Of a stretch of DNA of 24,131 nt, positions 427-23,564 are shown piece after piece. A program made the position numbers and the translations under genes. The stretch is from a virus (lineage: Duplodnaviria > Heunggongvirae > Uroviricota > Caudoviricetes). Under the pieces are notes generated by a model. The model did no database searches and was not told where the DNA came from. It worked only from the letters and a program-made list of their open reading frames with translations. Numbering within the stretch: the stretch's first letter is position 1; every line of letters starts with the position of its first letter. The stretch lies in the IMG/VR virus record IMGVR_UViG_2667528074_000002, positions 1 to 24,131 of that record; one strand, 5' to 3'.

Positions 427-1008
427 TTAACTGACAGGTTGCTGCGGCCAATCAATTTCCGGTGCTAAAGATGTATCAACCCGGTTCAGCAACACCCGAT
501 ACTTCTTCCAGGCCGCCAGTAACGAGGTTTCTTCCTCCGTTGCAATTTCCAGATCTGCAGCATCCTGAAGCGGTGAAATATGCTCACTGGCTACCTGCAT
601 CAGGCTGTTTTTTGTTTCTTCCGCCTCCCGGATCCGGAACAGTCTTTCTGCTTCTGCATCTTTCACCCAGGCTGTACCGTTCCACTTCTGATACTCTCCA
701 TCCGGGGATAACCAGGTGACATTTTCCGGTAACGGACCGGGTTCAGAAATAAATAATGCATCCCCTGATGCCACGTCATAAACCGTTTTACCCCGATGGT
801 CTTCAACGAGATGCCACGATGCCTCATCACTGTTGAAAACAGCCACGAAGCCAGCCGGAATATCTGGCGGTGCAATATCGGTACTGTTTGCTGGCAGACC
901 TGTATGAGGTGGAATGTATGCATCACCTTCACCAATAAATTCATTGGTTCCGGCCAGCAGATTATAAATTTTTATGGTCCGTGGTAGTTCACTCATTCTG
1001 AATGCCAT
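427..1008 (-). CDS. tfa: Tail fibre assembly protein (lambda Tfa-like chaperone)
   Basis: 193 aa [57 protein letters not shown]..., matching my recollection of lambda Tfa (194 aa). Its start overlaps the stf stop (TAATG), indicating translational coupling. Confidence 0.85.
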
Positions 1009-3396: not shown

Positions 3397-4017
3397 TCAG
3401 AATTTATAACCGACCCCAACGATGAATCCGTCAGTACGCCAGTCGCCACTGCCGGAGCCTTCATAAGCAATATCAACAACGACGGACGCTGCCGGATTAA
3501 TCTGTATACCAGCACTCCACGCCACTGAGGTATGCCGCATTGCACTTTCGTCCCTGGCGGTGGTCGTCTCTTTCATATACCCGGGAGTGATTTCCGTCTT
3601 GCGGTAATCCCTTGTACTGCCGGACCACCGACTGTGAGCCACTCCGGCCATGGCGTACGCACTGACCTGCTTACTGATTTGTAAAACCGGTCCGGCCATC
3701 ACGCTCACATAACGTCCACGCAGGCTCTCATAGTGAAACGTATCCTCCCCGGTCATCACTGTGCTGCTCTTTTTCGACGCGGCGAACCCCAGGGAAGCCA
3801 TCACCCCCACACTGTCCGTCAGTTCATAACGGTACTTCACGTTAATCCCTTTCAGATGACTCACACCGGTATCCCCGCCCGACAACGACGGCAATGTACC
3901 CGGTTTCACCTGAAAATAGCCCACCGTAAACGTACCCTGTCCACCTTCCGCACGGGCCGGAGTGACTGTCACCGCAAGTGCGGCAAAGACAGCAACGGCA
4001 ATACACACATTACGCAT
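3397..4017 (-). CDS. lom: Outer membrane beta-barrel protein Lom (Ail/Lom/PagC family), lysogenic-conversion moron
   Basis: 206 aa with N-terminal signal peptide MRNVCIAVAVFAALAVTVTPARA and C-terminal ...GVGYKF ending in an aromatic residue, typical of OM beta-barrels; matches my recollection of lambda Lom. RBS GAGAGGTGAA upstream of the ATG. Confidence 0.85.
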   Translation of the reverse strand: MRNVCIAVAVFAALAVTVTPARAEGGQGTFTVGYFQVKPGTLPSLSGGDTGVSHLKGINVKYRYELTDSVGVMASLGFAASKKSSTVMTGEDTFHYESLRGRYVSVMAGPVLQISKQVSAYAMAGVAHSRWSGSTRDYRKTEITPGYMKETTTARDESAMRHTSVAWSAGIQINPAASVVVDIAYEGSGSGDWRTDGFIVGVGYKF

Positions 4018-16061: not shown

Positions 16062-18134
16062 TTACGCCGTACATTTCACCAGACCGCGGTGATCAACCGG
16101 TGCAACGCCGGCGTCAATACGCACTTTCGTGGTCACGCCATCCACACTGAAACCTTCCATCTGATCAATGTATGGCGTATCCACACCGTTGAGATAAGCC
16201 ACTTCAATCGTATCGGAGCCTTTGGATGCAGCCAGATAAAAGGTGGTCTGGCTGCTATCATCCAGACGCGGCTCAGCGATAACGGTCGCAAAATCTTTCA
16301 CTGGGTTAATAATACCGGCATTGACGTCTGCGCCTTTCACACTGGCAGAGCGGATCACCTGGTTAGCCACCGATTCCATCGCCGTCGGTACCAGCACGAA
16401 CGCAGGGCGAATATTCAGGTGACGCTCACCTTCTTTCTGAACACGCATCAACTGGCGGGCTTTATCCAGCGATGCCACGTCCATTGCTGCGCTCTCCAGT
16501 ACGTTTGCATGTTTCGCTTTATCGAACAGGCTTACATTATCTGTGGAGATTTTCGGGTTAGAGGTCAGAATGGCATAAACCAGATCGGCAATCGTGGATT
16601 TCGCCGCACGGCCCAGCTTCATCGGGACATCGGTCAGCATATTCAGATCATCATTGATAATGGCCTGACGGGTGATACTGAACAGTTCACCATAGGTCGC
16701 CAGTGCAATCGTGGCCTGTTTATCTCCGGTGGTGACGTACTTATATTCAGCCCCTTCACGCACCTGACGCAGAGAACTGAAGCCCCCCATTCCCACACGA
16801 TGAGCAATTTTAAAATCAGACAGCTGACCTTTCCGGGTCCACTGCTCGTAAGTCTCAGGGGCTTCTTCCCAGCCCTGCAGAATGGCTTTGTTCGCAACAT
16901 CCAGCAGAATATTACCGAAGTCAGACGAGCTGTGTGTGAATGCCGCACCAACCATCTGCATGGGGTTATAACCGGAAACCCCGATACCCCGTTCAGTCAG
17001 CGACATACGGGCATATTCGCGCAGGGTCATCCCGTTGTAGACGTTATCCTGTTCACGCTCAGCAAATCCGGCGCGTGCCATCAGCGCCTGTCGGATCCCG
17101 TCCCCCACAAAATTACCGTTGCCGGCATAAATATGGGACGGGGTATTTTTATTTGATGGTGAAAATTCCTTACCCATTTCATTCAGTAACTTCTCGCGAG
17201 CCTGCTCAAGCGAGCACTCCGGATCGGAAAGACAACTGGCCTGCAATGTCTGATAACGCCCGCCAAACATACCAAACAGATCATTAATACCACTCACGCG
17301 TGCTTTTTGCTCAGCCAGCACCTGTGCACGGATACTGCTTTCATCTGCGGAAGACGCATTTGCAGTGGTCACGGTACTTGTCGCGGTTGCGGCAACCTGA
17401 GCCGTAGTCTGCTCCTGTGTCTGAGATGCAGTATTTTTGTTTTCAGGCTCACGCGTTGCACTGTTGCGTGGCGGAGTAATCATATTTCGGATGGATTCCG
17501 GCATTTTTTTAAATTCCTCTGTACGTTTTGACTGAATACATGCCATTGCATTAACTTCCGGTGTCACCTGGTCAGCAAATCCGTGTGCCAGACATTCGGC
17601 ACCTGACATCCAGGTTTCATCCGCCAGCATGGCAGCAATTTCATCGGTAGTTTTTCCGGTTTTTTGCGCATAAGCAGGCAACAGGACCGATTCAACTTTA
17701 TCAAGCAGGTCGGCATAATCGCGCATATCATCCGCATCACCACCACTCACTCCCCATGGTTTATGGATCATCATGAATGCATTTTCAGGCATGATGACGG
17801 GATCCCCCACCATCGCAATGACCGACGCCATTGACGCCGCCACACCGTCGACATAAACGGTAATGGACGCACCATGTGTTTTCAGTGCATTAAAAATGGC
17901 GATGCCTTCAAAGACATCGCCACCCGGTGAATTAATATGGAGATTGATGTGGGTGATATTACCCAGCGCATTCAGATCACTGACAAACTGCTTCGCCGTA
18001 ACTCCCCAGAAACCAATCTCGTCATAGATATAAATATCTGCGTCACTTTTATGACCCGCCTTCATCCTGAACCAGGAATTATTCTTCAGGCTGGCCTTCG
18101 GTTCGCCGCGAAACCACGCGTTCTGTTTCAGCAT
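16062..18134 (-). CDS. Prohead protease (ClpP/S14-like) - linker/scaffold - major capsid protein, encoded as one ORF
   Basis: ATG at 18134 (MLKQNAWFRGEP...) with RBS AAGGAGGTGG. N-terminal ~200 aa carry ClpP-like Ser/His/Asp motifs (GVAASMASVIAMVGD, FMMIHKPWG, AHGFADQV). A Thr/Ala/Gln-rich linker follows (...TASQTQEQTTAQVAATATSTVTTANASS...), then a ~400 aa C-terminal region of capsid-like size and composition. No stop codon separates them. Confidence 0.8.
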   Translation of the reverse strand: MLKQNAWFRGEPKASLKNNSWFRMKAGHKSDADIYIYDEIGFWGVTAKQFVSDLNALGNITHINLHINSPGGDVFEGIAIFNALKTHGASITVYVDGVAASMASVIAMVGDPVIMPENAFMMIHKPWGVSGGDADDMRDYADLLDKVESVLLPAYAQKTGKTTDEIAAMLADETWMSGAECLAHGFADQVTPEVNAMACIQSKRTEEFKKMPESIRNMITPPRNSATREPENKNTASQTQEQTTAQVAATATSTVTTANASSADESSIRAQVLAEQKARVSGINDLFGMFGGRYQTLQASCLSDPECSLEQAREKLLNEMGKEFSPSNKNTPSHIYAGNGNFVGDGIRQALMARAGFAEREQDNVYNGMTLREYARMSLTERGIGVSGYNPMQMVGAAFTHSSSDFGNILLDVANKAILQGWEEAPETYEQWTRKGQLSDFKIAHRVGMGGFSSLRQVREGAEYKYVTTGDKQATIALATYGELFSITRQAIINDDLNMLTDVPMKLGRAAKSTIADLVYAILTSNPKISTDNVSLFDKAKHANVLESAAMDVASLDKARQLMRVQKEGERHLNIRPAFVLVPTAMESVANQVIRSASVKGADVNAGIINPVKDFATVIAEPRLDDSSQTTFYLAASKGSDTIEVAYLNGVDTPYIDQMEGFSVDGVTTKVRIDAGVAPVDHRGLVKCTA

Positions 18135-19584
18135 TACCACCTCCTTTATCGCTGGCCGGATCGGTATCAAACACCAGATCCAGCCTGCGGTTTTCATCAA
18201 TTTCGGCCTTGCGCCGACGTTTGACATCATCCGGATTACGACCACTGGCGCGTACCCAGTCTGATTCTGTCGCCGCACCACCTCGGATCTGGATTCTCCA
18301 GGCTTCAGCTTCCTTGACAGGATCGATCCACGGCATCACCGGACCAGAATATGTTGCGTTATATAACGTTTTCATATCGACATCCGGCGGGATTTTCAGC
18401 AACCCAGCGGCAACCACCATATTCAGCCATGCCCGGTACACCGGACGGGTTACAGCACCAATAAAACAGTCCTGCATGATCAGATAACCATCGGTGGACT
18501 CGACCAGTTCCTGTCGCTGGGCGCTGTAGGTACCGTTATAGTTACGTGCTGCACTGGAAAAACTCAGACGTGTGCCCGCCGCCACGGCCCGCAACTGACC
18601 ATTACGAAAAGTTTCCAGGTTAGGGTTAGGCCGATCGGATTTGACCATGCCAATATCTTCCCCCTTGCGCAGATCGTCATAAATAATGCCGGGAGTGATA
18701 TGCAGTTCCCGGTCATTATCTTTATTTGTCACAACGTCTTCATAATCCTGTCCGTCTCCTTTACGGATATACAGCCCCAGAGCCGCAGCAATACGCGCCG
18801 CTGTCAGTTCAGCATCTTCATATTCCTTAAGCGCACTGATCCGCATCAACACACCTGACAACATGGATGTACCACGCGTCTGATGCAGCCGGCGGGTAAA
18901 CTTCAGATGCACCATATTTTCAGCGGCGATCTCTTTGGTATCACTCTGTCGGCCGGTAACCGGATAATTTTTATAAACCAGGTATTTTTTCGGCCTGCCC
19001 CACTCATCCAGAAAAACCCCCTGATTCATTCCCGCGGACTCATCACTGAGCATGGGCACAAAATCCGGCTCTATTGCCTCGAGCCAGAAAGGCACGCCGG
19101 CAGTCCGGACCAGCCCGGCACCTGCGCCTCTGACCATCTGGGCAAACACTTCACCATCACGTAACCAGGTACGCAGCAGCAGACGCTCGAGCATGGGGCG
19201 CGTATACTGCCCGGTCACATCCGGACTGACAGACCATTCCGACCACAAACGACGGATAATCATTGCCACTTCTGTGGCCATATCACCGTTTTTCAGTAAT
19301 GGCTGGGGTTCAACAATGATCCCTTTTGCACCAATCACCCGCTCCTCAAGTTTGTCGAAAGCACCGATTACCAGGTCATGATTGATATCCAGAAAACGGG
19401 CCTGCTCCCGCAGGGAAACCGCCCCATACTTACTGAGCTGGTCAGCAGAACGGTTTTCCCGTCGGGCTTTGTGTGTGCGGGTGGGTTTTACGGCCTCATA
19501 AGCGCGAATTAACGCTCTTGAGCGCAATCTCGCCGCCTTCCAGCCTGGTGAAAAAACACCAATCACATCATCCAGAATTGCCAT
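18079..19584 (-). CDS. Portal protein
   Basis: 501 aa ORF between the gpW-like gene and the protease-capsid gene; start overlaps the W-like stop; acidic C-terminus. Assignment rests on size and conserved gene order, not on a recognised motif. Confidence 0.75.
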   Translation of the reverse strand: MAILDDVIGVFSPGWKAARLRSRALIRAYEAVKPTRTHKARRENRSADQLSKYGAVSLREQARFLDINHDLVIGAFDKLEERVIGAKGIIVEPQPLLKNGDMATEVAMIIRRLWSEWSVSPDVTGQYTRPMLERLLLRTWLRDGEVFAQMVRGAGAGLVRTAGVPFWLEAIEPDFVPMLSDESAGMNQGVFLDEWGRPKKYLVYKNYPVTGRQSDTKEIAAENMVHLKFTRRLHQTRGTSMLSGVLMRISALKEYEDAELTAARIAAALGLYIRKGDGQDYEDVVTNKDNDRELHITPGIIYDDLRKGEDIGMVKSDRPNPNLETFRNGQLRAVAAGTRLSFSSAARNYNGTYSAQRQELVESTDGYLIMQDCFIGAVTRPVYRAWLNMVVAAGLLKIPPDVDMKTLYNATYSGPVMPWIDPVKEAEAWRIQIRGGAATESDWVRASGRNPDDVKRRRKAEIDENRRLDLVFDTDPASDKGGGNAETERVVSRRTEGQPEE

Positions 19585-19802
19585 CAGAACCTCGCCAGTT
19601 TATACCCAGGATCCCCCCGCCGCCGCGCAGTCAGGGCAGCAAGCCGCCGCTCCCACTCCTGGCGGCCCTGTCGGATCTCGGACAAATTTTCCATGGTCAT
19701 CTGCTGACCATTAAAGGTGACGGATTTACCGTCCAGCACAGCCATTTCCGCATCGATATAACGCTGAATCACGGCTTCAATATCATTCTGATTCATAACC
19801 AT
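19584..19802 (-). CDS. gpW-like head-tail connector / head completion protein
   Basis: 72 aa between the terminase large subunit and portal, as lambda W is between A and B; C-terminal ...RRLAALTARRRGDPG resembles the lambda W C-terminus (...TQRRRGPAGF). Confidence 0.6.
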   Translation of the reverse strand: MVMNQNDIEAVIQRYIDAEMAVLDGKSVTFNGQQMTMENLSEIRQGRQEWERRLAALTARRRGDPGYKLARF

Positions 19803-21907
19803 CCTCCGGAAGTCACCCAGGGGTTGTCCTCATCGGGTGCCATTTTTTTTCGTTTCCTTTTTCTGACAGGCGGAAGTGCCGGCTCCGGCAGAACAGGTAG
19901 CTCCACGTTGTCACTGACGCACTCCAGCCAGGTTTCCCGGCACGCCCACTCCGGCGCATCAGGCCACTGAATTTTCTCGTACCCATGCAGAATGACCAGC
20001 GCCTCGGCATACACCATCAGGTCAAAGGCTTCGTTGGCGCCGCGCCCCGGCTTACTCCATTTCCCGTCACTGCTCCGCTCTTCATACGTCAGTTCGTCGT
20101 AAAACCAGCCCCCCAGCCAGTCAGGGAAATGCACATACCCCGGCCCCGGGGAGTCACGCCATAACGCATTATTCACCCGGTCTTTCAGGGCATCAGTCTG
20201 AAGAAGCCAGAGAGGAACATCACCCGAAGCCTGCGCCCGTCGCCCCGTTCGTCCGGTGTTATCCGGAAATGTACGGGTGATCAGTTTTGCGCGACGTATG
20301 CTGTCGCCCTTAAACAGATAAATACGCTTTCCAAGACCATCAAGACGGCAGCGACGCCAGAATTTATAGGCATTATCTGTCACCCCGTCTTCACCGCCGG
20401 AGTCCACCGCCATTGCCATTACCCGCATGCGCTGAGAAGGGGCGGAGGCCAGCGGCCAGCTTTTATAAAAAACATCCGTCAGCAGAACATCCCAGTCCTC
20501 CGGATAACCGGCAGGGTCAATACGCAGACTTTCTCCGTTATTGTCACAACGCAGCGACTGCGTGATGTTGTAACGATCAACTATCCATCGCTCGCCGCGA
20601 CTACCATAGCCTGTTACCTGAACCACAAAACGGCGATGACGCCCTGCCTGCACATCCACTGTCGCCGCAAGGAAATTAACGCCATCCGGTACACTGCGGT
20701 GAGGAACGGGCTCTGCCCGCTGCTCAAGCAGTTCACTTTTACGCTGTTCCGCCGCTGAACGGGGCAGATAGGGGCGTCCGATATCGGTATTCACCACCGC
20801 CTTCAGGGTCTCTTCACTTCCGGTTCGCTCATACTCTTCTTCTGCCGCCAGCAGCTTAAAAATCAGTTGTTCCCAGGTCTGAAACGCAGCAGCCGGCCCC
20901 TCCATCCAGAATGACGCAATCCTGGAATTTCGTGGTGTTCCGACGATACTGCCGTCCGCCGCGACCCGTTCACCTTCCCGAAGCCAGATCCCCTTGTTAT
21001 TCAGTTCGCGTTTCTGCTCCGGAGCAATCAGCCCGCGACAGTGCGGACACATCAGACGTGCAGCCTGTCCGGCCGCCACAAAATCGGGGTTATTCCGGTA
21101 ACCGGTCATGTTATCCATTACCGGCTGAAAATATTCCCCACAGTGCGGACACGGCCAGTACCAGCGACGGCGATCGCCACGGTTATAAAGGGACAGGATC
21201 CCCGTGGTTGGCGGTGCCTCATGTGCGCCACCACAGCGCCATTTGGTGTCGGTGATATCCCGCCCGGGCGAACTCTCAACCAGCGTCATCCCGGAAGACA
21301 TAAAGGTGGTGGTGCGTTTTGATGCCAGCGTGAAGGCATCCCCTTCACCGTCAACGTTCTCAGGGAAACGGTCATAATCCGTCAGCGCCACACGGCGGTA
21401 ATCCGAGGAAGAGAAAACAGTGATTGACGGCCAGCCAATCTTCAGGAAAGAGCCGTCAAGAAACATTTTATCGTGGACGTTGTTGTCATTGCGGGAAGGA
21501 CTCAGGCGTTTACTAACCTCCGGGCTGTGACGAAACGTCCTGGAAAGACGCGTTCTGGAATGCTCACGCGCCTTGGTTTCGGTCATCTGTACCACCAGCA
21601 TATCAGCCGGATCGCAGATAACACCGTACACAATCCAGCCGTCAATCAGCCCCTCTGTTTTCCCTGTTCGGGCAGGACCAACAAACACTACGGCATCATA
21701 TTCACGGGCAGATAATGTATTTATAGGGTCAATCATGTAGGGTGTCAGCGATGACTCCCACGGACCAGAAGTATTGGCTCCCCGTGGTACCCGCATATAA
21801 CGCCTGATGGCTTCCGCTACTGGCAGCCGGCTGGGTGGGCGAAACAGCGAGGCCACCTCGCGCCAGATATCGGATGCGCGGCTATGGCTCTCGTTCACCT
21901 GATTCAC
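19793..21907 (-). CDS. Terminase large subunit (GpA-like)
   Basis: 704 aa; P-loop VVFVGPARTGKTEGL near the N-terminus; size and position (after the small subunit, before W-like and portal) fit a lambda-type terminase ATPase/nuclease; start overlaps the small-subunit stop. Confidence 0.85.
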   Translation of the reverse strand: MNQVNESHSRASDIWREVASLFRPPSRLPVAEAIRRYMRVPRGANTSGPWESSLTPYMIDPINTLSAREYDAVVFVGPARTGKTEGLIDGWIVYGVICDPADMLVVQMTETKAREHSRTRLSRTFRHSPEVSKRLSPSRNDNNVHDKMFLDGSFLKIGWPSITVFSSSDYRRVALTDYDRFPENVDGEGDAFTLASKRTTTFMSSGMTLVESSPGRDITDTKWRCGGAHEAPPTTGILSLYNRGDRRRWYWPCPHCGEYFQPVMDNMTGYRNNPDFVAAGQAARLMCPHCRGLIAPEQKRELNNKGIWLREGERVAADGSIVGTPRNSRIASFWMEGPAAAFQTWEQLIFKLLAAEEEYERTGSEETLKAVVNTDIGRPYLPRSAAEQRKSELLEQRAEPVPHRSVPDGVNFLAATVDVQAGRHRRFVVQVTGYGSRGERWIVDRYNITQSLRCDNNGESLRIDPAGYPEDWDVLLTDVFYKSWPLASAPSQRMRVMAMAVDSGGEDGVTDNAYKFWRRCRLDGLGKRIYLFKGDSIRRAKLITRTFPDNTGRTGRRAQASGDVPLWLLQTDALKDRVNNALWRDSPGPGYVHFPDWLGGWFYDELTYEERSSDGKWSKPGRGANEAFDLMVYAEALVILHGYEKIQWPDAPEWACRETWLECVSDNVELPVLPEPALPPVRKRKRKKMAPDEDNPWVTSGGWL

Positions 21908-22380
21908 ATATCGGCCTCATCACAACAGCCAATGACTGCTTTTTCCAGCGTATCGCGGATCTCATCAACCACAATCTGCACTTCATTCAGTTGTGATGCG
22001 GTCCACCCTCTGTCCCTTTCCAGCCTGTCTGGCCAGGTTTCCAATACCTGAACTATCGCTTTCACCACGACGGAAAACGACCGTCTGACATCACTGGCCG
22101 GAATGAGTTGTGCCGTTTCCTGTTCGAACTTAAGACGCTCACGTTCAGACTGATACCAGGCTTTGCGCTCATGCGCGTCCATTTCGCCTTCTGCAACCGG
22201 CGGTGGTAATGCCAGAAATGCCGACACAATATCAACCACCCGATAAAGCTTGAGGTTGCTTTCATGCCCCCCTGCAACGGGTAGATTTTGCAGCCTTGCC
22301 GCAGCAGTCTGGCGATGTACACCTGACAGTGCCGCCAGTTGACTGATATTCAGCGTCAGATTTTTTAACTCTCGATCCAT
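21904..22380 (-). CDS. Terminase small subunit (Nu1-like, N-terminal HTH)
   Basis: 158 aa; N-terminal helix-turn-helix LNISQLAALSGVHRQTAAARL; RBS GGAG upstream; located ~186 bp downstream of the cosN-like sequence, the same spacing as lambda Nu1 from cosN. Confidence 0.8.
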   Translation of the reverse strand: MDRELKNLTLNISQLAALSGVHRQTAAARLQNLPVAGGHESNLKLYRVVDIVSAFLALPPPVAEGEMDAHERKAWYQSERERLKFEQETAQLIPASDVRRSFSVVVKAIVQVLETWPDRLERDRGWTASQLNEVQIVVDEIRDTLEKAVIGCCDEADM

Positions 22381-22483
22381 ACCCGCTCCAGAATGTTTTA
22401 AACATGCATCTTGCGAACAACTTTAGGCAAACGGTGTTAGTGATGAACAAAAAACAATCAAAATCGACACCATAAAAATAAAA

Positions 22484-22511
22484 CCACTGTAATATCAATC
22501 CATTACAGTAG
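22484..22511. promoter_or_regulatory. cosB-like inverted repeat with embedded IHF-consensus site
   Basis: CCACTGTAAT-(8 bp)-ATTACAGTAG, a 10 bp inverted repeat with 9/10 complementarity; the centre TATCAATCCATTA (22493..22505) fits the IHF consensus WATCAANNNNTTR. Lies between cosN and the small terminase gene. Confidence 0.45.
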
Positions 22512-22554
22512 CGGTGATGACGAATGAAATTTCAAAAACTAGCCTTTTTCCGCG

Positions 22555-22566
22555 CCGCTGCCGCCC
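22555..22566 (-). other. Putative cosN (cohesive-end site), lambda-like but divergent
   Basis: Minus strand ACGGGGCGGCAGCGGCGCGG against lambda ACGGGGCGGCGACCTCGCGG as I recall it: first 10 nt identical, next 5 differ, then CGCGG identical. Predicted 12-nt end GGGCGGCAGCGG versus lambda GGGCGGCGACCT. Confidence 0.55.
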
Positions 22567-22740
22567 CGTGGCAGGCCACCCCACCGGAAGGACCCGCACA
22601 AATGAGAGCGTTTATCATTAATATTTACAGATAAGATGACGTACATCATTGAAACGCCATTCAGCCATATACCGGCAGCATTCGTTGTTGCACTCCGTAA
22701 CCCTGCGACTAAGGTTGAAAGCATGGCCATCTTTTTGCCA

Positions 22741-23242: not shown

Positions 23243-23425
23243 TCAGTTCTGCATACACTGCCGAACACCGTCGACAATTTCACAGACCTGAGAAGCTGTA
23301 TCGAAAAGCTGGCGCGCCTTATCCAGGCTGACGCACCCCACCAATAAAAAAGGCACCAGTATCGCTACCAGTGCCCATTTCGCCGCCGTTCGCGGCATTC
23401 TGTGTGTCCAGTGTTTTCGGCTCAT
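23243..23425 (-). CDS. Small putative lipoprotein (about 60 aa precursor, about 30 aa mature)
   Basis: ATG at 23425 with RBS GGTGGTGGTGAC; N-terminal basic region MSRKHWTHRMPRTAAK, hydrophobic core WALVAILVPFLL and lipobox LVGC; mature peptide CVSLDKARQLFDTASQVCEIVDGVRQCMQN with Val at +2 and three Cys. Start codon sits 1 nt after the stop of the upstream small ORF (TGA-C-ATG). Confidence 0.5.
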   Translation of the reverse strand: MSRKHWTHRMPRTAAKWALVAILVPFLLVGCVSLDKARQLFDTASQVCEIVDGVRQCMQN

Positions 23426-23426
23426 G

Positions 23427-23564
23427 TCACCACCACCTGACCGCACTAACCAACTGTGCAATACCATACAAACACAAGCAAAACGCTCCAGCCTTGATTA
23501 ACCAGGCGGTAGCTACACTGATTTCGCTCGTCACCGGAGCTTTCAGTTCAGGGCCGTTTTTCAT
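23427..23564 (-). CDS. Small putative single-pass membrane protein (45 aa), translationally coupled to the lipoprotein gene
   Basis: ATG at 23564 with RBS GAGGT (6-nt spacer); MKNGPELKAPVTSEISVATAWLIKAGAFCLCLYGIAQLVSAVRWW with a C-terminal hydrophobic helix; its stop is 1 nt before the lipoprotein ATG. The longer 71 aa version in the track lacks an RBS. Confidence 0.35.
   Translation of the reverse strand: MKNGPELKAPVTSEISVATAWLIKAGAFCLCLYGIAQLVSAVRWW

What the first reader, a model, noticed from the sequence alone, without database searches (positions are those of the whole stretch)
22484..22566. cos site with lambda-like core but a different predicted cohesive end, plus an inverted repeat and IHF-consensus site
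About 186 bp upstream of the small terminase gene, the minus strand reads ACGGGGCGGCAGCGGCGCGG. Its first 10 nt and its last 5 nt match lambda cosN as I remember it, but the central five bases differ, predicting a 12-nt overhang GGGCGGCAGCGG instead of GGGCGGCGACCT. Between it and the terminase gene lies a 10 bp inverted repeat around a perfect IHF consensus, resembling lambda cosB (terminase-binding R sites plus the I1 IHF site). A changed cohesive end would block in vitro packaging and cos-cosmid compatibility with lambda, and may accompany a co-evolved terminase specificity.
Basis: partly seen in the sequence, partly recalled or inferred. Interest (0 to 1): 0.45.

Follow-up and report, generated by a model that had tools for sequence, protein, structure and literature searches.

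The report
Lambda-type cos site of a prophage
This is the ordinary DNA-packaging cut site (cos) of a lambda-like E. coli prophage; its predicted sticky end differs from lambda's at four bases, but the same end occurs in Salmonella phage Fels-1 and many other prophages, and this kind of variation is already described.

Summary
The minus strand reads ACG|GGGCGGCAGCGG|CGCGG (22569..22550), 186 bp upstream of the small-terminase ATG, and matches the true lambda junction except at end positions 8, 9, 11 and 12. Together with a gpA-family large terminase, this makes a complete lambda-type cosQ-cosN-cosB site.

The predicted end is not new. Fels-1 has the identical junction, 68 viral contigs carry the same 20-mer, and Gifsy-1 differs by one base. 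Feiss and co-workers have published that natural cosN variation is confined to bp 7-12 and does not affect nicking.

The IHF consensus (22493-22505) is well supported: it is intact in 54 of 54 relatives, and substitutions fall on its N positions. The inverted repeat is not: it is perfect in only 27 of 54, uncompensated, and absent in CP-1639/ASU11. It is unlikely to be the terminase-binding site. A CATCACC motif at the R3-equivalent position is the better candidate.

Identical TerS and TerL proteins sit beside different cosN alleles, while cosB tracks the TerS N-terminus. Verdict: a known kind, of low interest.

The parts
22589..22595 (-). cosQ-like heptamer GGGTCCT, 22 bp before the predicted nick (23 bp in lambda).
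   Evidence: Identical to lambda bases 48473-48479 as read from NC_001416; that this heptamer is cosQ is from my own memory. Present in the window. GGGTCCT-N22-GGGCGG is expected 0.00 times by chance. The same heptamer recurs in the cdtI, phi458 and Gifsy-1 records; mEp043 and Tritos have GGGTCCTC; Fels-1 has GGTACTC. Feiss et al. report that cosQ is highly conserved.
22550..22571 (-). cosN, 22 bp: CCACG|GGGCGGCAGCGG|CGCGG. The predicted nicks lie on the - strand between 22567 and 22566, and on the + strand between 22555 and 22554.
   Evidence: chance expectation 0.03. The flanking CG steps are conserved as in lambda. Twofold symmetry about the centre of the core is 14/22. The spacing is constant in every one of the 80 matches listed, of 119 related viral contigs found; one sequence extracted later has a 1-nt-shorter core.
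22555..22566 (-). Predicted 12-nt 5' cohesive end, GGGCGGCAGCGG.
   Evidence: By homology to lambda. It is identical to the homologous 12-mer of Fels-1 and one base different from Gifsy-1. The cdtI and Tritos records start at the homologous base. The physical ends have not been determined.
22522..22554 (-). Spacer bp 13-45 (CGCGGAAAAAGGCTAGTTTTTGAAATTTCATTC), in the position of lambda's I2 segment. It has an A5/T5 tract.
   Evidence: Nearly invariant in 54 distinct relatives. A role like that of I2 in termination is inferred from PMC4669245, not tested.
22513..22521 (-). GTCATCACC at bp 46-54, the candidate R3-equivalent binding site for the small terminase.
   Evidence: It lies where lambda R3 (bp 50-65) and N15 R3 (bp 48-60) lie. 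It is almost invariant in 54 relatives. CATCACC is kept in the CP-1639/ASU11 cosB, and related CATCATC motifs sit at the same place in the Fels-1, VT1-Sakai and mEp043 types. Binding is inferred.
22493..22505 (+). IHF consensus TATCAATCCATTA at bp 62-74, the equivalent of lambda's I1.
   Evidence: Exact consensus. Intact in 54 of 54 relatives, with substitutions concentrated at its N positions, bp 66 and 67. A consensus match also lies at the same place in cdtI/Tritos (bp 64-76) and in CP-1639.
22473..22512 (-). Inverted repeat (8 bp perfect, 12 pairs with G-T) followed by the T-run TTTTATTTTT. It overlaps the IHF site.
   Evidence: Terminator-like hit. RNA fold -17.2 kcal/mol, z = -3.85. Only 18 of 54 relatives keep all 12 pairs, there are 2 compensatory cells, and it is absent in CP-1639/ASU11. 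It is probably not a selected structure.
22440..22457 (-). TTGTTTTTTGTTCATCAC at bp 110-127: a second, direct copy of TCATCAC, 74 bp from the first. Candidate distal TerS site (R2/R1-like).
   Evidence: Conserved in 54 relatives, in CP-1639/ASU11 and, as GTTTTTTGTTC(A/G)(T/A)CATC, in the Fels-1 and VT1-Sakai types. Function is inferred.
21904..22380 (-). Small terminase subunit (TerS), 158 aa, Pfam DUF1441.
   Evidence: PF07278, E = 1e-44. PHROG 141, terminase small subunit. An identical protein is on 65 E. coli contigs.
19793..21907 (-). Large terminase subunit (TerL), 704 aa, lambda gpA family. This is the enzyme predicted to nick cosN.
   Evidence: GpA_ATPase and GpA_nuclease, each E < 1e-80. 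25% identical to lambda gpA, E = 1e-21.
18079..19802 (-). Small W-position ORF (19584-19802) and lambda-family portal (18079-19584), which complete the packaging module.
   Evidence: The portal matches Phage_portal_2, E = 8e-81. The gene order Nu1-A-W-B is that of lambda. The 72-aa ORF has no family hit above threshold; its adaptor role is inferred from position alone.

Best explanation
The region 22440-22595 (minus strand) is the cohesive-end site (cos) of a lambda-like E. coli prophage. It has the same three-part layout as lambda's cos.

- **cosQ** is GGGTCCT at 22595..22589.
- **cosN** is CCACG|GGGCGGCAGCGG|CGCGG at 22571..22550.
- **cosB** runs from about bp 46 to about bp 127, counting the first overhang base as bp 1. 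It holds a CATCACC motif at the R3-equivalent position, an IHF site at bp 62-74, an A/T tract, and a second CATCAC copy at bp 121-127.
- **The small-terminase gene** starts at bp 187.

Inferred mechanism, by homology to lambda:
1. The DUF1441 small terminase binds cosB, helped by an IHF-induced bend.
2. This positions the gpA-family large terminase on cosN.
3. The large terminase makes two nicks 12 bp apart, leaving the 5' overhang GGGCGGCAGCGG.
4. cosQ, cosN and the bp 13-45 spacer serve in termination at the next cos.

[quoted passage not shown] They are a common natural allele, the same as in Fels-1. Packaging specificity lies in the cosB-TerS pair, not in cosN.

Shown: the sequence anatomy, the homology, and the pattern of conservation. 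Inferred: the nick positions, the TerS and IHF contacts, and that the prophage is active.
For: - **Match to lambda.** Exact match to lambda's cosQ heptamer, nick-flanking bases and left half of the end. Chance expectations are 0.03 and 0.00.
- **Symmetry.** 14/22 positions are symmetric about the predicted centre, against 10/22 in lambda.
- **Proteins and spacing.** Lambda-family TerL and portal follow in lambda order. The TerS start is at bp 187, against 191 in lambda.
- **Record boundaries.** The cdtI and Tritos records are opened exactly at the homologous nick.
- **Same or near-same ends in named phages.** Fels-1 has the identical junction. Gifsy-1 reads GGGCGGCAGCGT, as the literature states.
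- **Constant spacing.** The core between the flanks is 12 nt in every one of the 80 matches listed, of 119 related contigs.
- **IHF site.** Intact in 54 of 54 relatives, with variation at its N positions, and retained in the cdtI and CP-1639 cosB types.
- **Modularity.** cosB type tracks the TerS N-terminal type, while cosN alleles cut across both.
- **Literature.** Variation at bp 7-12 is common and neutral for nicking, and specificity lies in cosB-TerS (PMC4669245). Lambda terminase cuts 47 +/- 2 bp from its R site (title of Higgins & Becker 1994, as listed). The DUF1441-type cyanophage Cr-LKS3 has experimentally determined lambda-like 5' ends (PMC9303873; TerS match).
Against: - No physical end mapping exists for this prophage. 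I found none in readable literature for any phage with this exact allele.
- TerL is only 25% identical to lambda gpA.
- TerS has no sequence similarity to Nu1, so transferring mechanistic detail from lambda is an extrapolation.
- Cr-LKS3 has a 9-nt end, and VT1-Sakai and CP-1639 have 11- and 10-nt cores. Overhang length is therefore not fixed across the wider family.
- The two CATCAC copies are direct repeats, whereas lambda's R3 and R2 are inverted, so the cosB geometry may differ.
- I could not establish how the cdtI and Tritos record starts were chosen.
Confidence: 0.85

Rival explanations
1. The inverted repeat plus T-run (22473-22512, minus strand) is an intrinsic transcription terminator at the end of the lysis region. 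On this reading it is not a protein-binding part of cosB, and its overlap with the IHF consensus is incidental.
For: The terminator scan calls it: 12 pairs, a 6-nt loop, and the tail TTTATTTTTA. The RNA fold is -17.2 kcal/mol with z = -3.85. 92.7% of stem cells across 54 relatives can pair under RNA rules, against 21-62% for slid controls.
Against: The stem has only 3 G-C pairs. 36 of 54 relatives have at least one broken pair, and there are only 2 compensatory cells. The related CP-1639/ASU11 cosB keeps the IHF consensus and the CATCAC motifs but has no hairpin, and its A/T tract is inverted. The late transcript must read through here to reach the head genes. The slid-control excess is expected because the structure was derived from one of these sequences.
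Confidence: 0.1
2. The two arms of the inverted repeat are the small-terminase binding sites, bound by a TerS dimer, with IHF bending the DNA between them.
For: Lambda's R3 and R2 are inverted relative to each other and flank I1. The repeat is real in the window.
Against: The arms are only 8 bp apart and overlap the IHF consensus itself, whereas lambda's R3 and R2 are about 60 bp apart. The right arm varies freely, at positions 77-83. The palindrome is perfect in only 27 of 54 relatives that share the same TerS N-terminus. CP-1639/ASU11 lack it although their TerS is 82% identical. The conserved motif at the R3 position is CATCACC, outside the core palindrome.
Confidence: 0.08
3. The nicks are not 12 bp apart at the lambda-homologous positions, so the true overhang has a different length or register.
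For: Cr-LKS3, with a DUF1441-like TerS, has a 9-nt end. VT1-Sakai and CP-1639 have 11- and 10-nt cores. TerL is only 25% identical to gpA.
Against: The window keeps lambda's exact 12-nt spacing between the conserved ACG and CGCGG flanks, with the twofold symmetry centred on it. That spacing is constant in the related contigs. CP-1639 may be a decayed prophage; I recall it described as cryptic.
Confidence: 0.07
4. The cosN allele is an adaptation matched to a co-evolved terminase, creating a packaging-incompatibility barrier with lambda.
For: The end differs from lambda's at 4 of 12 positions. Ends mismatched at 2 positions already lower yield about fourfold. TerL copies next to the two alleles differ at 13-21 residues within and after the nuclease domain.
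Against: An identical TerS sits next to four alleles, and an identical TerL next to two. The same allele is joined to at least six cosB/TerS types. Lambda TerL cuts right-half variants equally well, and no cosN specificity was found. The TerL differences are clustered as at a recombination boundary.
Confidence: 0.05

Closest known systems
Bacteriophage lambda cos (cosQ-cosN-cosB)
   Same: The cosQ heptamer GGGTCCT is identical. The ACG and CGCGG nick flanks are identical, as are end positions 1-7 and 10. The core is 12 nt with twofold symmetry. An IHF site lies in cosB. The TerS start is about 190 bp from the left end. The TerL and portal belong to the gpA and lambda-portal families, in the same gene order.
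   Different: End positions 8, 9, 11 and 12 differ. The cosB sequence is unrelated. TerS is DUF1441, with no sequence similarity to Nu1. TerL is only 25% identical. The candidate TerS motifs are direct repeats 74 bp apart, not lambda's inverted R3/R2 arrangement.
Salmonella phage Fels-1 cos region (NC_010391)
   Same: The cosN is identical, CCACG|GGGCGGCAGCGG|CGCGG. It has a DUF1441 TerS (48% identical) and a CATCATC-type motif at the R3 position.
   Different: The upstream element is GGTACTC rather than GGGTCCT. The cosB sequence differs, and there is no exact IHF consensus.
mEp460 / phi458 / Ayreon group of E. coli lambdoid phages
   Same: The cosQ and cosB are the same (92-97% identical), and TerS residues 1-145 are 83% identical.
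   Different: Their cosN allele is GGGCGGGAGCGT, with G at position 7 and T at position 12. The C-terminal end of TerS differs (164 aa against 158 aa).
Gifsy-1, N15 and mEp213/LLS cosN variants described by the Feiss laboratory
   Same: All are lambda-like 12-nt ends that vary only in bp 7-12. Gifsy-1 is GGGCGGCAGCGT, one base from the window. mEp213/LLS is GGGCGGCGCGCT.
   Different: Gifsy-1 and N15 have Nu1-type TerS and their own cosB types.
Phage cdtI and phage Tritos
   Same: They have a DUF1441 TerS, a near-identical left flank and I2-like spacer, and an IHF consensus at bp 64-76. Both records are opened at the homologous nick.
   Different: Their TerS is only 39% identical, their cosB is different (CATGGCGGCGGCA...), and their allele is GGGCGGGAGCGT.

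Membership tests
[quoted passage not shown] | A 12-nt core with significant identity to GGGCGGCGACCT, with the left half conserved | tested here: met
   8 of 12 positions are identical, including positions 1-7 and 10. The differences are at 8, 9, 11 and 12 only.
[quoted passage not shown] | Conserved CG dinucleotides flanking both nick positions | tested here: met
   ACG|...|CGCGG is identical to lambda.
[quoted passage not shown] | The cosQ heptamer upstream of cosN | tested here: met
   GGGTCCT at 22595..22589, 22 bp from the nick against 23 bp in lambda.
[quoted passage not shown] | Partial twofold rotational symmetry centred between end positions 6 and 7 | tested here: met
   14/22 symmetric positions, against 10/22 in lambda.
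[quoted passage not shown] | Virion DNA actually carries 5'-protruding 12-nt complementary ends | not testable with these tools
   This needs virion DNA. The only indirect support is that the cdtI and Tritos records start at the homologous base, and that Cr-LKS3 has experimentally determined ends.
[quoted passage not shown] | A gpA-family large terminase encoded just downstream | tested here: met
   GpA_ATPase and GpA_nuclease, each E < 1e-80. BLASTP against gpA gives E = 1e-21.
complex (lambda/21/Monarch-type) cosB | An IHF site (I1) between the TerS-binding sites | tested here: met
   Exact consensus at bp 62-74. Intact in 54 of 54 relatives, with variation at its N positions. IHF binding itself was not tested.
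complex (lambda/21/Monarch-type) cosB | Three R sequences, with R2 inverted relative to R3 and R1 | tested here: inconclusive
   Two direct CATCAC copies, at bp 47-53 and 121-127, are conserved. I found no clear inverted third copy. No binding data exist.
Nu1-family small terminase (winged helix-turn-helix DNA-binding domain) | Sequence membership in the Nu1 family | tested here: not met
   Pfam assigns DUF1441 only. BLASTP against lambda Nu1 gives E = 31. There is no sequence hit in the PDB.
Nu1-family small terminase (winged helix-turn-helix DNA-binding domain) | N-terminal winged-helix (MerR-like) fold | tested here: inconclusive
intrinsic (Rho-independent) terminator | A G+C-rich stem followed by a T-run, conserved among relatives | tested here: not met
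   The T-run is present, but the stem has only 3 G-C pairs of 12. 36 of 54 relatives have broken pairs, there are 2 compensatory cells, and it is absent in CP-1639/ASU11.

The most novel reading that the evidence does not exclude
The DUF1441 small terminases may recognise cosB through a geometry different from lambda's. Two direct CATCA(C/T)C repeats lie about seven helical turns apart (bp 47-53 and 121-127). Between them are an IHF site and an A/T tract. In lambda, by contrast, R3 and R2 are inverted around I1. This would be an uncharacterised packaging-specificity class, widespread in E. coli and Salmonella prophages, including Stx and Cdt phages.
Probability: 0.35. Interest if true: 0.3.

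Novelty: already known. Interest (0 to 1): 0.12.

Why it matters
It matters little beyond correct annotation. Knowing the cos position gives the proper left and right ends of this prophage genome. It also flags the small ORF over cosQ/cosN as probably spurious.

The comparative data gathered here illustrate a published principle: cosN right-half alleles move freely among lambda-like phages, while cosB and the TerS DNA-binding end travel together.

The one open point is how DUF1441-type small terminases read their cosB. I found no experimental dissection of this in the literature I could search. These terminases are common in Stx-, Cdt- and Gifsy/Fels-type prophages of pathogens.

Tried and rejected
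- **Literature search for the 12-mers** (GGGCGGCAGCGG and relatives): only unrelated primer or construct hits.
- **Papers not held in the library:** the Asakura 2007 PNAS paper on cdtI and Vahanian et al. 2017, Virology 509:140, the cosN survey. I therefore cannot say whether this allele is tabulated there, or how the cdtI ends were set.
- **The LF82 prophage paper** says nothing about how the Tritos ends were mapped.
- **The genome-contig scan with the 20-mer** gave 39 hits, nearly all in high-GC organisms and without phage context. These are chance matches and were discarded.
- **E. coli complete RefSeq genomes:** the best match over the cos region is only 97.5% identical. The same prophage turned up through the exact-protein look-up instead (L247).
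- **Hairpin as a selected structure:** considered and rejected.
- **Inverted repeat as R sites:** considered and rejected.

Full report
**Observation**

On the minus strand the window reads ...GTGCGGGTCCTTCCGGTGGGGTGGCCTGCCACG GGGCGGCAGCGG CGCGGAAAAAGGCTAG.... The 20-mer ACGGGGCGGCAGCGGCGCGG occupies 22569..22550, and the 12-nt core occupies 22566..22555.

I did not rely on memory for lambda. From NC_001416 the junction is ...GGGTCCTTTCCGGTGATCCGACAGGTTACG | GGGCGGCGACCT | CGCGGGTTTTCG.... The window matches lambda at the three bases before the nick, at end positions 1-7 and 10, and at the CGCGG after the second nick. It differs at positions 8, 9, 11 and 12, which is four bases and not five.

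The pattern ACGGGGCGG-N6-CGCGG is expected 0.03 times in this window by chance.

The heptamer GGGTCCT, which lambda carries at 48473-48479 (I recall this heptamer being named cosQ), is present at 22595..22589. It lies 22 bp before the predicted nick, against 23 bp in lambda. GGGTCCT-N22-GGGCGG is expected 0.00 times by chance.

**Context**

The genes that follow on the same strand are:
- a 158-aa small terminase of Pfam family DUF1441 (22380..21904);
- a 704-aa large terminase with the gpA ATPase and gpA nuclease domains;
- a small ORF in the position of lambda's W;
- a lambda-family portal.

This is lambda's gene order. [quoted passage not shown] TerL is 25% identical to gpA, E = 1e-21. The site is more twofold-symmetric about the predicted centre than lambda's own, 14/22 against 10/22.

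An identical TerS is recorded on 65 E. coli contigs. One of these, L247 from GCA_018456385.1, differs from the window at 3 positions in 5.1 kb. The window is therefore a recurrent E. coli prophage.

**Is the end unusual? No.**

Evidence from named phages:
- The deposited genomes of phage cdtI (NC_009514) and phage Tritos (OV696610) end in ...CCACG and begin with GGGCGGGAGCGT CGCGG. They are opened at exactly the homologous position.
- Gifsy-1 reads TTACG|GGGCGGCAGCGT|CGCAGG.
- Salmonella phage Fels-1 reads CCACG|GGGCGGCAGCGG|CGCGG, identical to the window.
- mEp043 has GGGCGGCGCGCT, and PhiR5_1 has lambda's own end.

Evidence from contig collections:
- The exact 20-mer occurs in 68 IMG/VR contigs. 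Every copy follows a cosQ-like element, and the copies are joined to at least six unrelated right flanks.
- In 119 contigs that share the window's immediate flanks, the core is GGGCGGGAGCGT (96) or GGGCGGGAGCGG (19), and the spacing is constant.

Evidence from the literature:
- Feiss et al. 2015 (PMC4669245) define lambda-like phages by such ends.
- They report that differences at bp 7-12 are common: N15 at 9 and 12, Gifsy-1 at 8, 9 and 11.
- They report that the left half, the flanking CG steps and cosQ are conserved.
- They found that lambda TerL cuts right-half variants as well as its own, and that a two-base end mismatch costs only about fourfold in yield.
- A dedicated survey exists (Vahanian et al. 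2017, Virology 509:140; cited), but I could not read it.
- Zhang et al. 2025 (PMC12315714) infer the mEp213/LLS end in the same way.
- Cr-LKS3, whose TerS matches this family, has experimentally determined lambda-like 5' ends, 9 nt long (PMC9303873).

**Is the allele tied to the terminase? No.**

- Of six genomic places that encode the identical TerS, five carry GGGCGGGAGCGT and one carries the window's allele. The cosB is otherwise nearly identical.
- Their TerL proteins are 97-98% identical to the window's. The differences cluster after residue 443, as at a recombination boundary.
- Across all fetched loci, one TerS sequence lies next to four alleles, and one identical TerL next to two.
- The window's allele is found with DUF1441 TerS proteins of several types, and with true Nu1-like TerS (MKVNKKKLAEIF...).
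- By contrast, each TerS N-terminal type has its own cosB sequence.

This is the classical modular picture. Specificity lies in cosB and the TerS DNA-binding end, while cosN is a shared and drifting substrate.

Two SNPs confined to the 12-bp core, within about 300 bp of otherwise identical sequence, are what the heteroduplex-end mechanism of Feiss et al. would produce. That last point is inference.

**cosB**

I compared 54 distinct sequences that share the window's cosB type.

*Well conserved*
- The spacer at bp 13-45 and GTCATCACC at bp 46-54 are almost invariant.
- The IHF consensus at bp 62-74 is intact in all 54. Its substitutions concentrate on N positions 66 and 67, which is the signature expected of a selected IHF site.
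- The more distant CP-1639/ASU11 cosB (TerS 82% identical) keeps CATCACC, an exact IHF consensus (TATCAACAACTTA), and GTTGTTTTTTGTTCATCAC.
- cdtI and Tritos, with a quite different cosB, also have an exact consensus at bp 64-76.

*Not conserved*
- The consensus alone is expected 0.91 times per window, so location and conservation carry the argument.
- The 8-bp palindrome ACTGTAAT/ATTACAGT is perfect in only 27 of 54.
- The right arm varies at bp 77-83.
- The palindrome is absent from CP-1639/ASU11.

*Terminator reading.* With its T-run, the repeat scores as a terminator-like hairpin. Only 18 of 54 relatives keep all 12 pairs, and there are just 2 compensatory cells.

*Conclusion.* I conclude that the IHF site is real and the palindrome is incidental. 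The likeliest TerS sites are the CATCACC motif at the R3-equivalent position and its direct copy at bp 121-127. For comparison, lambda R3 is at bp 50-65 and N15 R3 at bp 48-60. The title of Higgins & Becker 1994, listed, says that lambda terminase cuts 47 +/- 2 bp from its R site. The TerS-site assignment is inference.

**TerS**

**Verdict**

Its predicted end is a common, previously documented natural allele. The suggestion that the changed end marks a co-evolved terminase specificity, or would in itself block packaging, is not supported. The novelty rating is "already known", and interest is low. The only open question is how DUF1441 small terminases read cosB.

Noticed in passing
L242 (Escherichia phage ASU11, ON416862.2), locus positions about 350-400: The deposited ASU11 genome goes straight from the cosQ region (GGGTCCTCCTGGTGGGGTGGGCCT) to cosB (TTATGGCACCATCACC). 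About 46 bp, including the whole of cosN, are missing compared with CP-1639. This may be an assembly artefact at the physical ends of virion DNA.
   Followed up: partly
L238 (VT1-Sakai) and L240 (CP-1639), just upstream of the DUF1441 gene: The core between the conserved ACG and CGCGG flanks is 11 nt in VT1-Sakai (GGGCGGGCGGG) and 10 nt in CP-1639 (GGGCGGGCGG). These may be decayed cos sites in prophages, or real variation in overhang length.
   Followed up: no
L004 (mEp460_4F5, LR595868.1), positions 1-25: The record starts 5 nt before the predicted nick and is 3 nt shorter than its relatives across the core and right flank (GGGCGGGAGCGCGG against GGGCGGGAGCGTCGCGG). This looks like an end-assembly artefact.
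   Followed up: no
L237 (Gifsy-2), locus positions about 320-350: Gifsy-2 has the same TerS family, but its cosN region has diverged: CCACG GGTGGCTTCGGGCT CGCGGG. That is 14 nt between the conserved flanks, and the GGGCGG left half is absent.
   Followed up: no
window 22539-22730 (-): A 63-aa ORF runs across cosQ and cosN and has no Pfam match. Overlapping ORFs are annotated as hypothetical proteins in the mEp460 and phi458 records, and as a 'putative late gene regulator' in Ayreon. It is probably not a real gene.
   Followed up: partly
window 19793-21907 (TerL), residues 443-681, compared with L243-L248: The amino-acid differences from the TerL copies of otherwise identical packaging modules all lie after residue 443. 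This suggests a recombination junction inside the nuclease domain.
   Followed up: partly
window 16062-18281 (-): A single long ORF matches both head-maturation protease and major head protein families (phrog_133, phrog_4523). This is a fused protease-capsid gene of the kind reported for Gifsy-2 (mentioned in PMC12315714).
   Followed up: no
window 467-665 (-): An Rfam match to IS009 (RF02111; 202 bits, against a gathering score of 117) lies inside the tail-fibre assembly gene at 427-1008.
   Followed up: no
window 23243-23467 (-): A small ORF between the lysis region and cos has a signal-peptide-like start and a lipobox-like LLVGC. It matches phrog_7528, of unknown function.
   Followed up: no
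window 3397-4017 (-): A homologue of the Lom outer-membrane protein (phrog_108) lies between the central tail fibre J gene and the side tail fibre gene, as in lambda.
   Followed up: no
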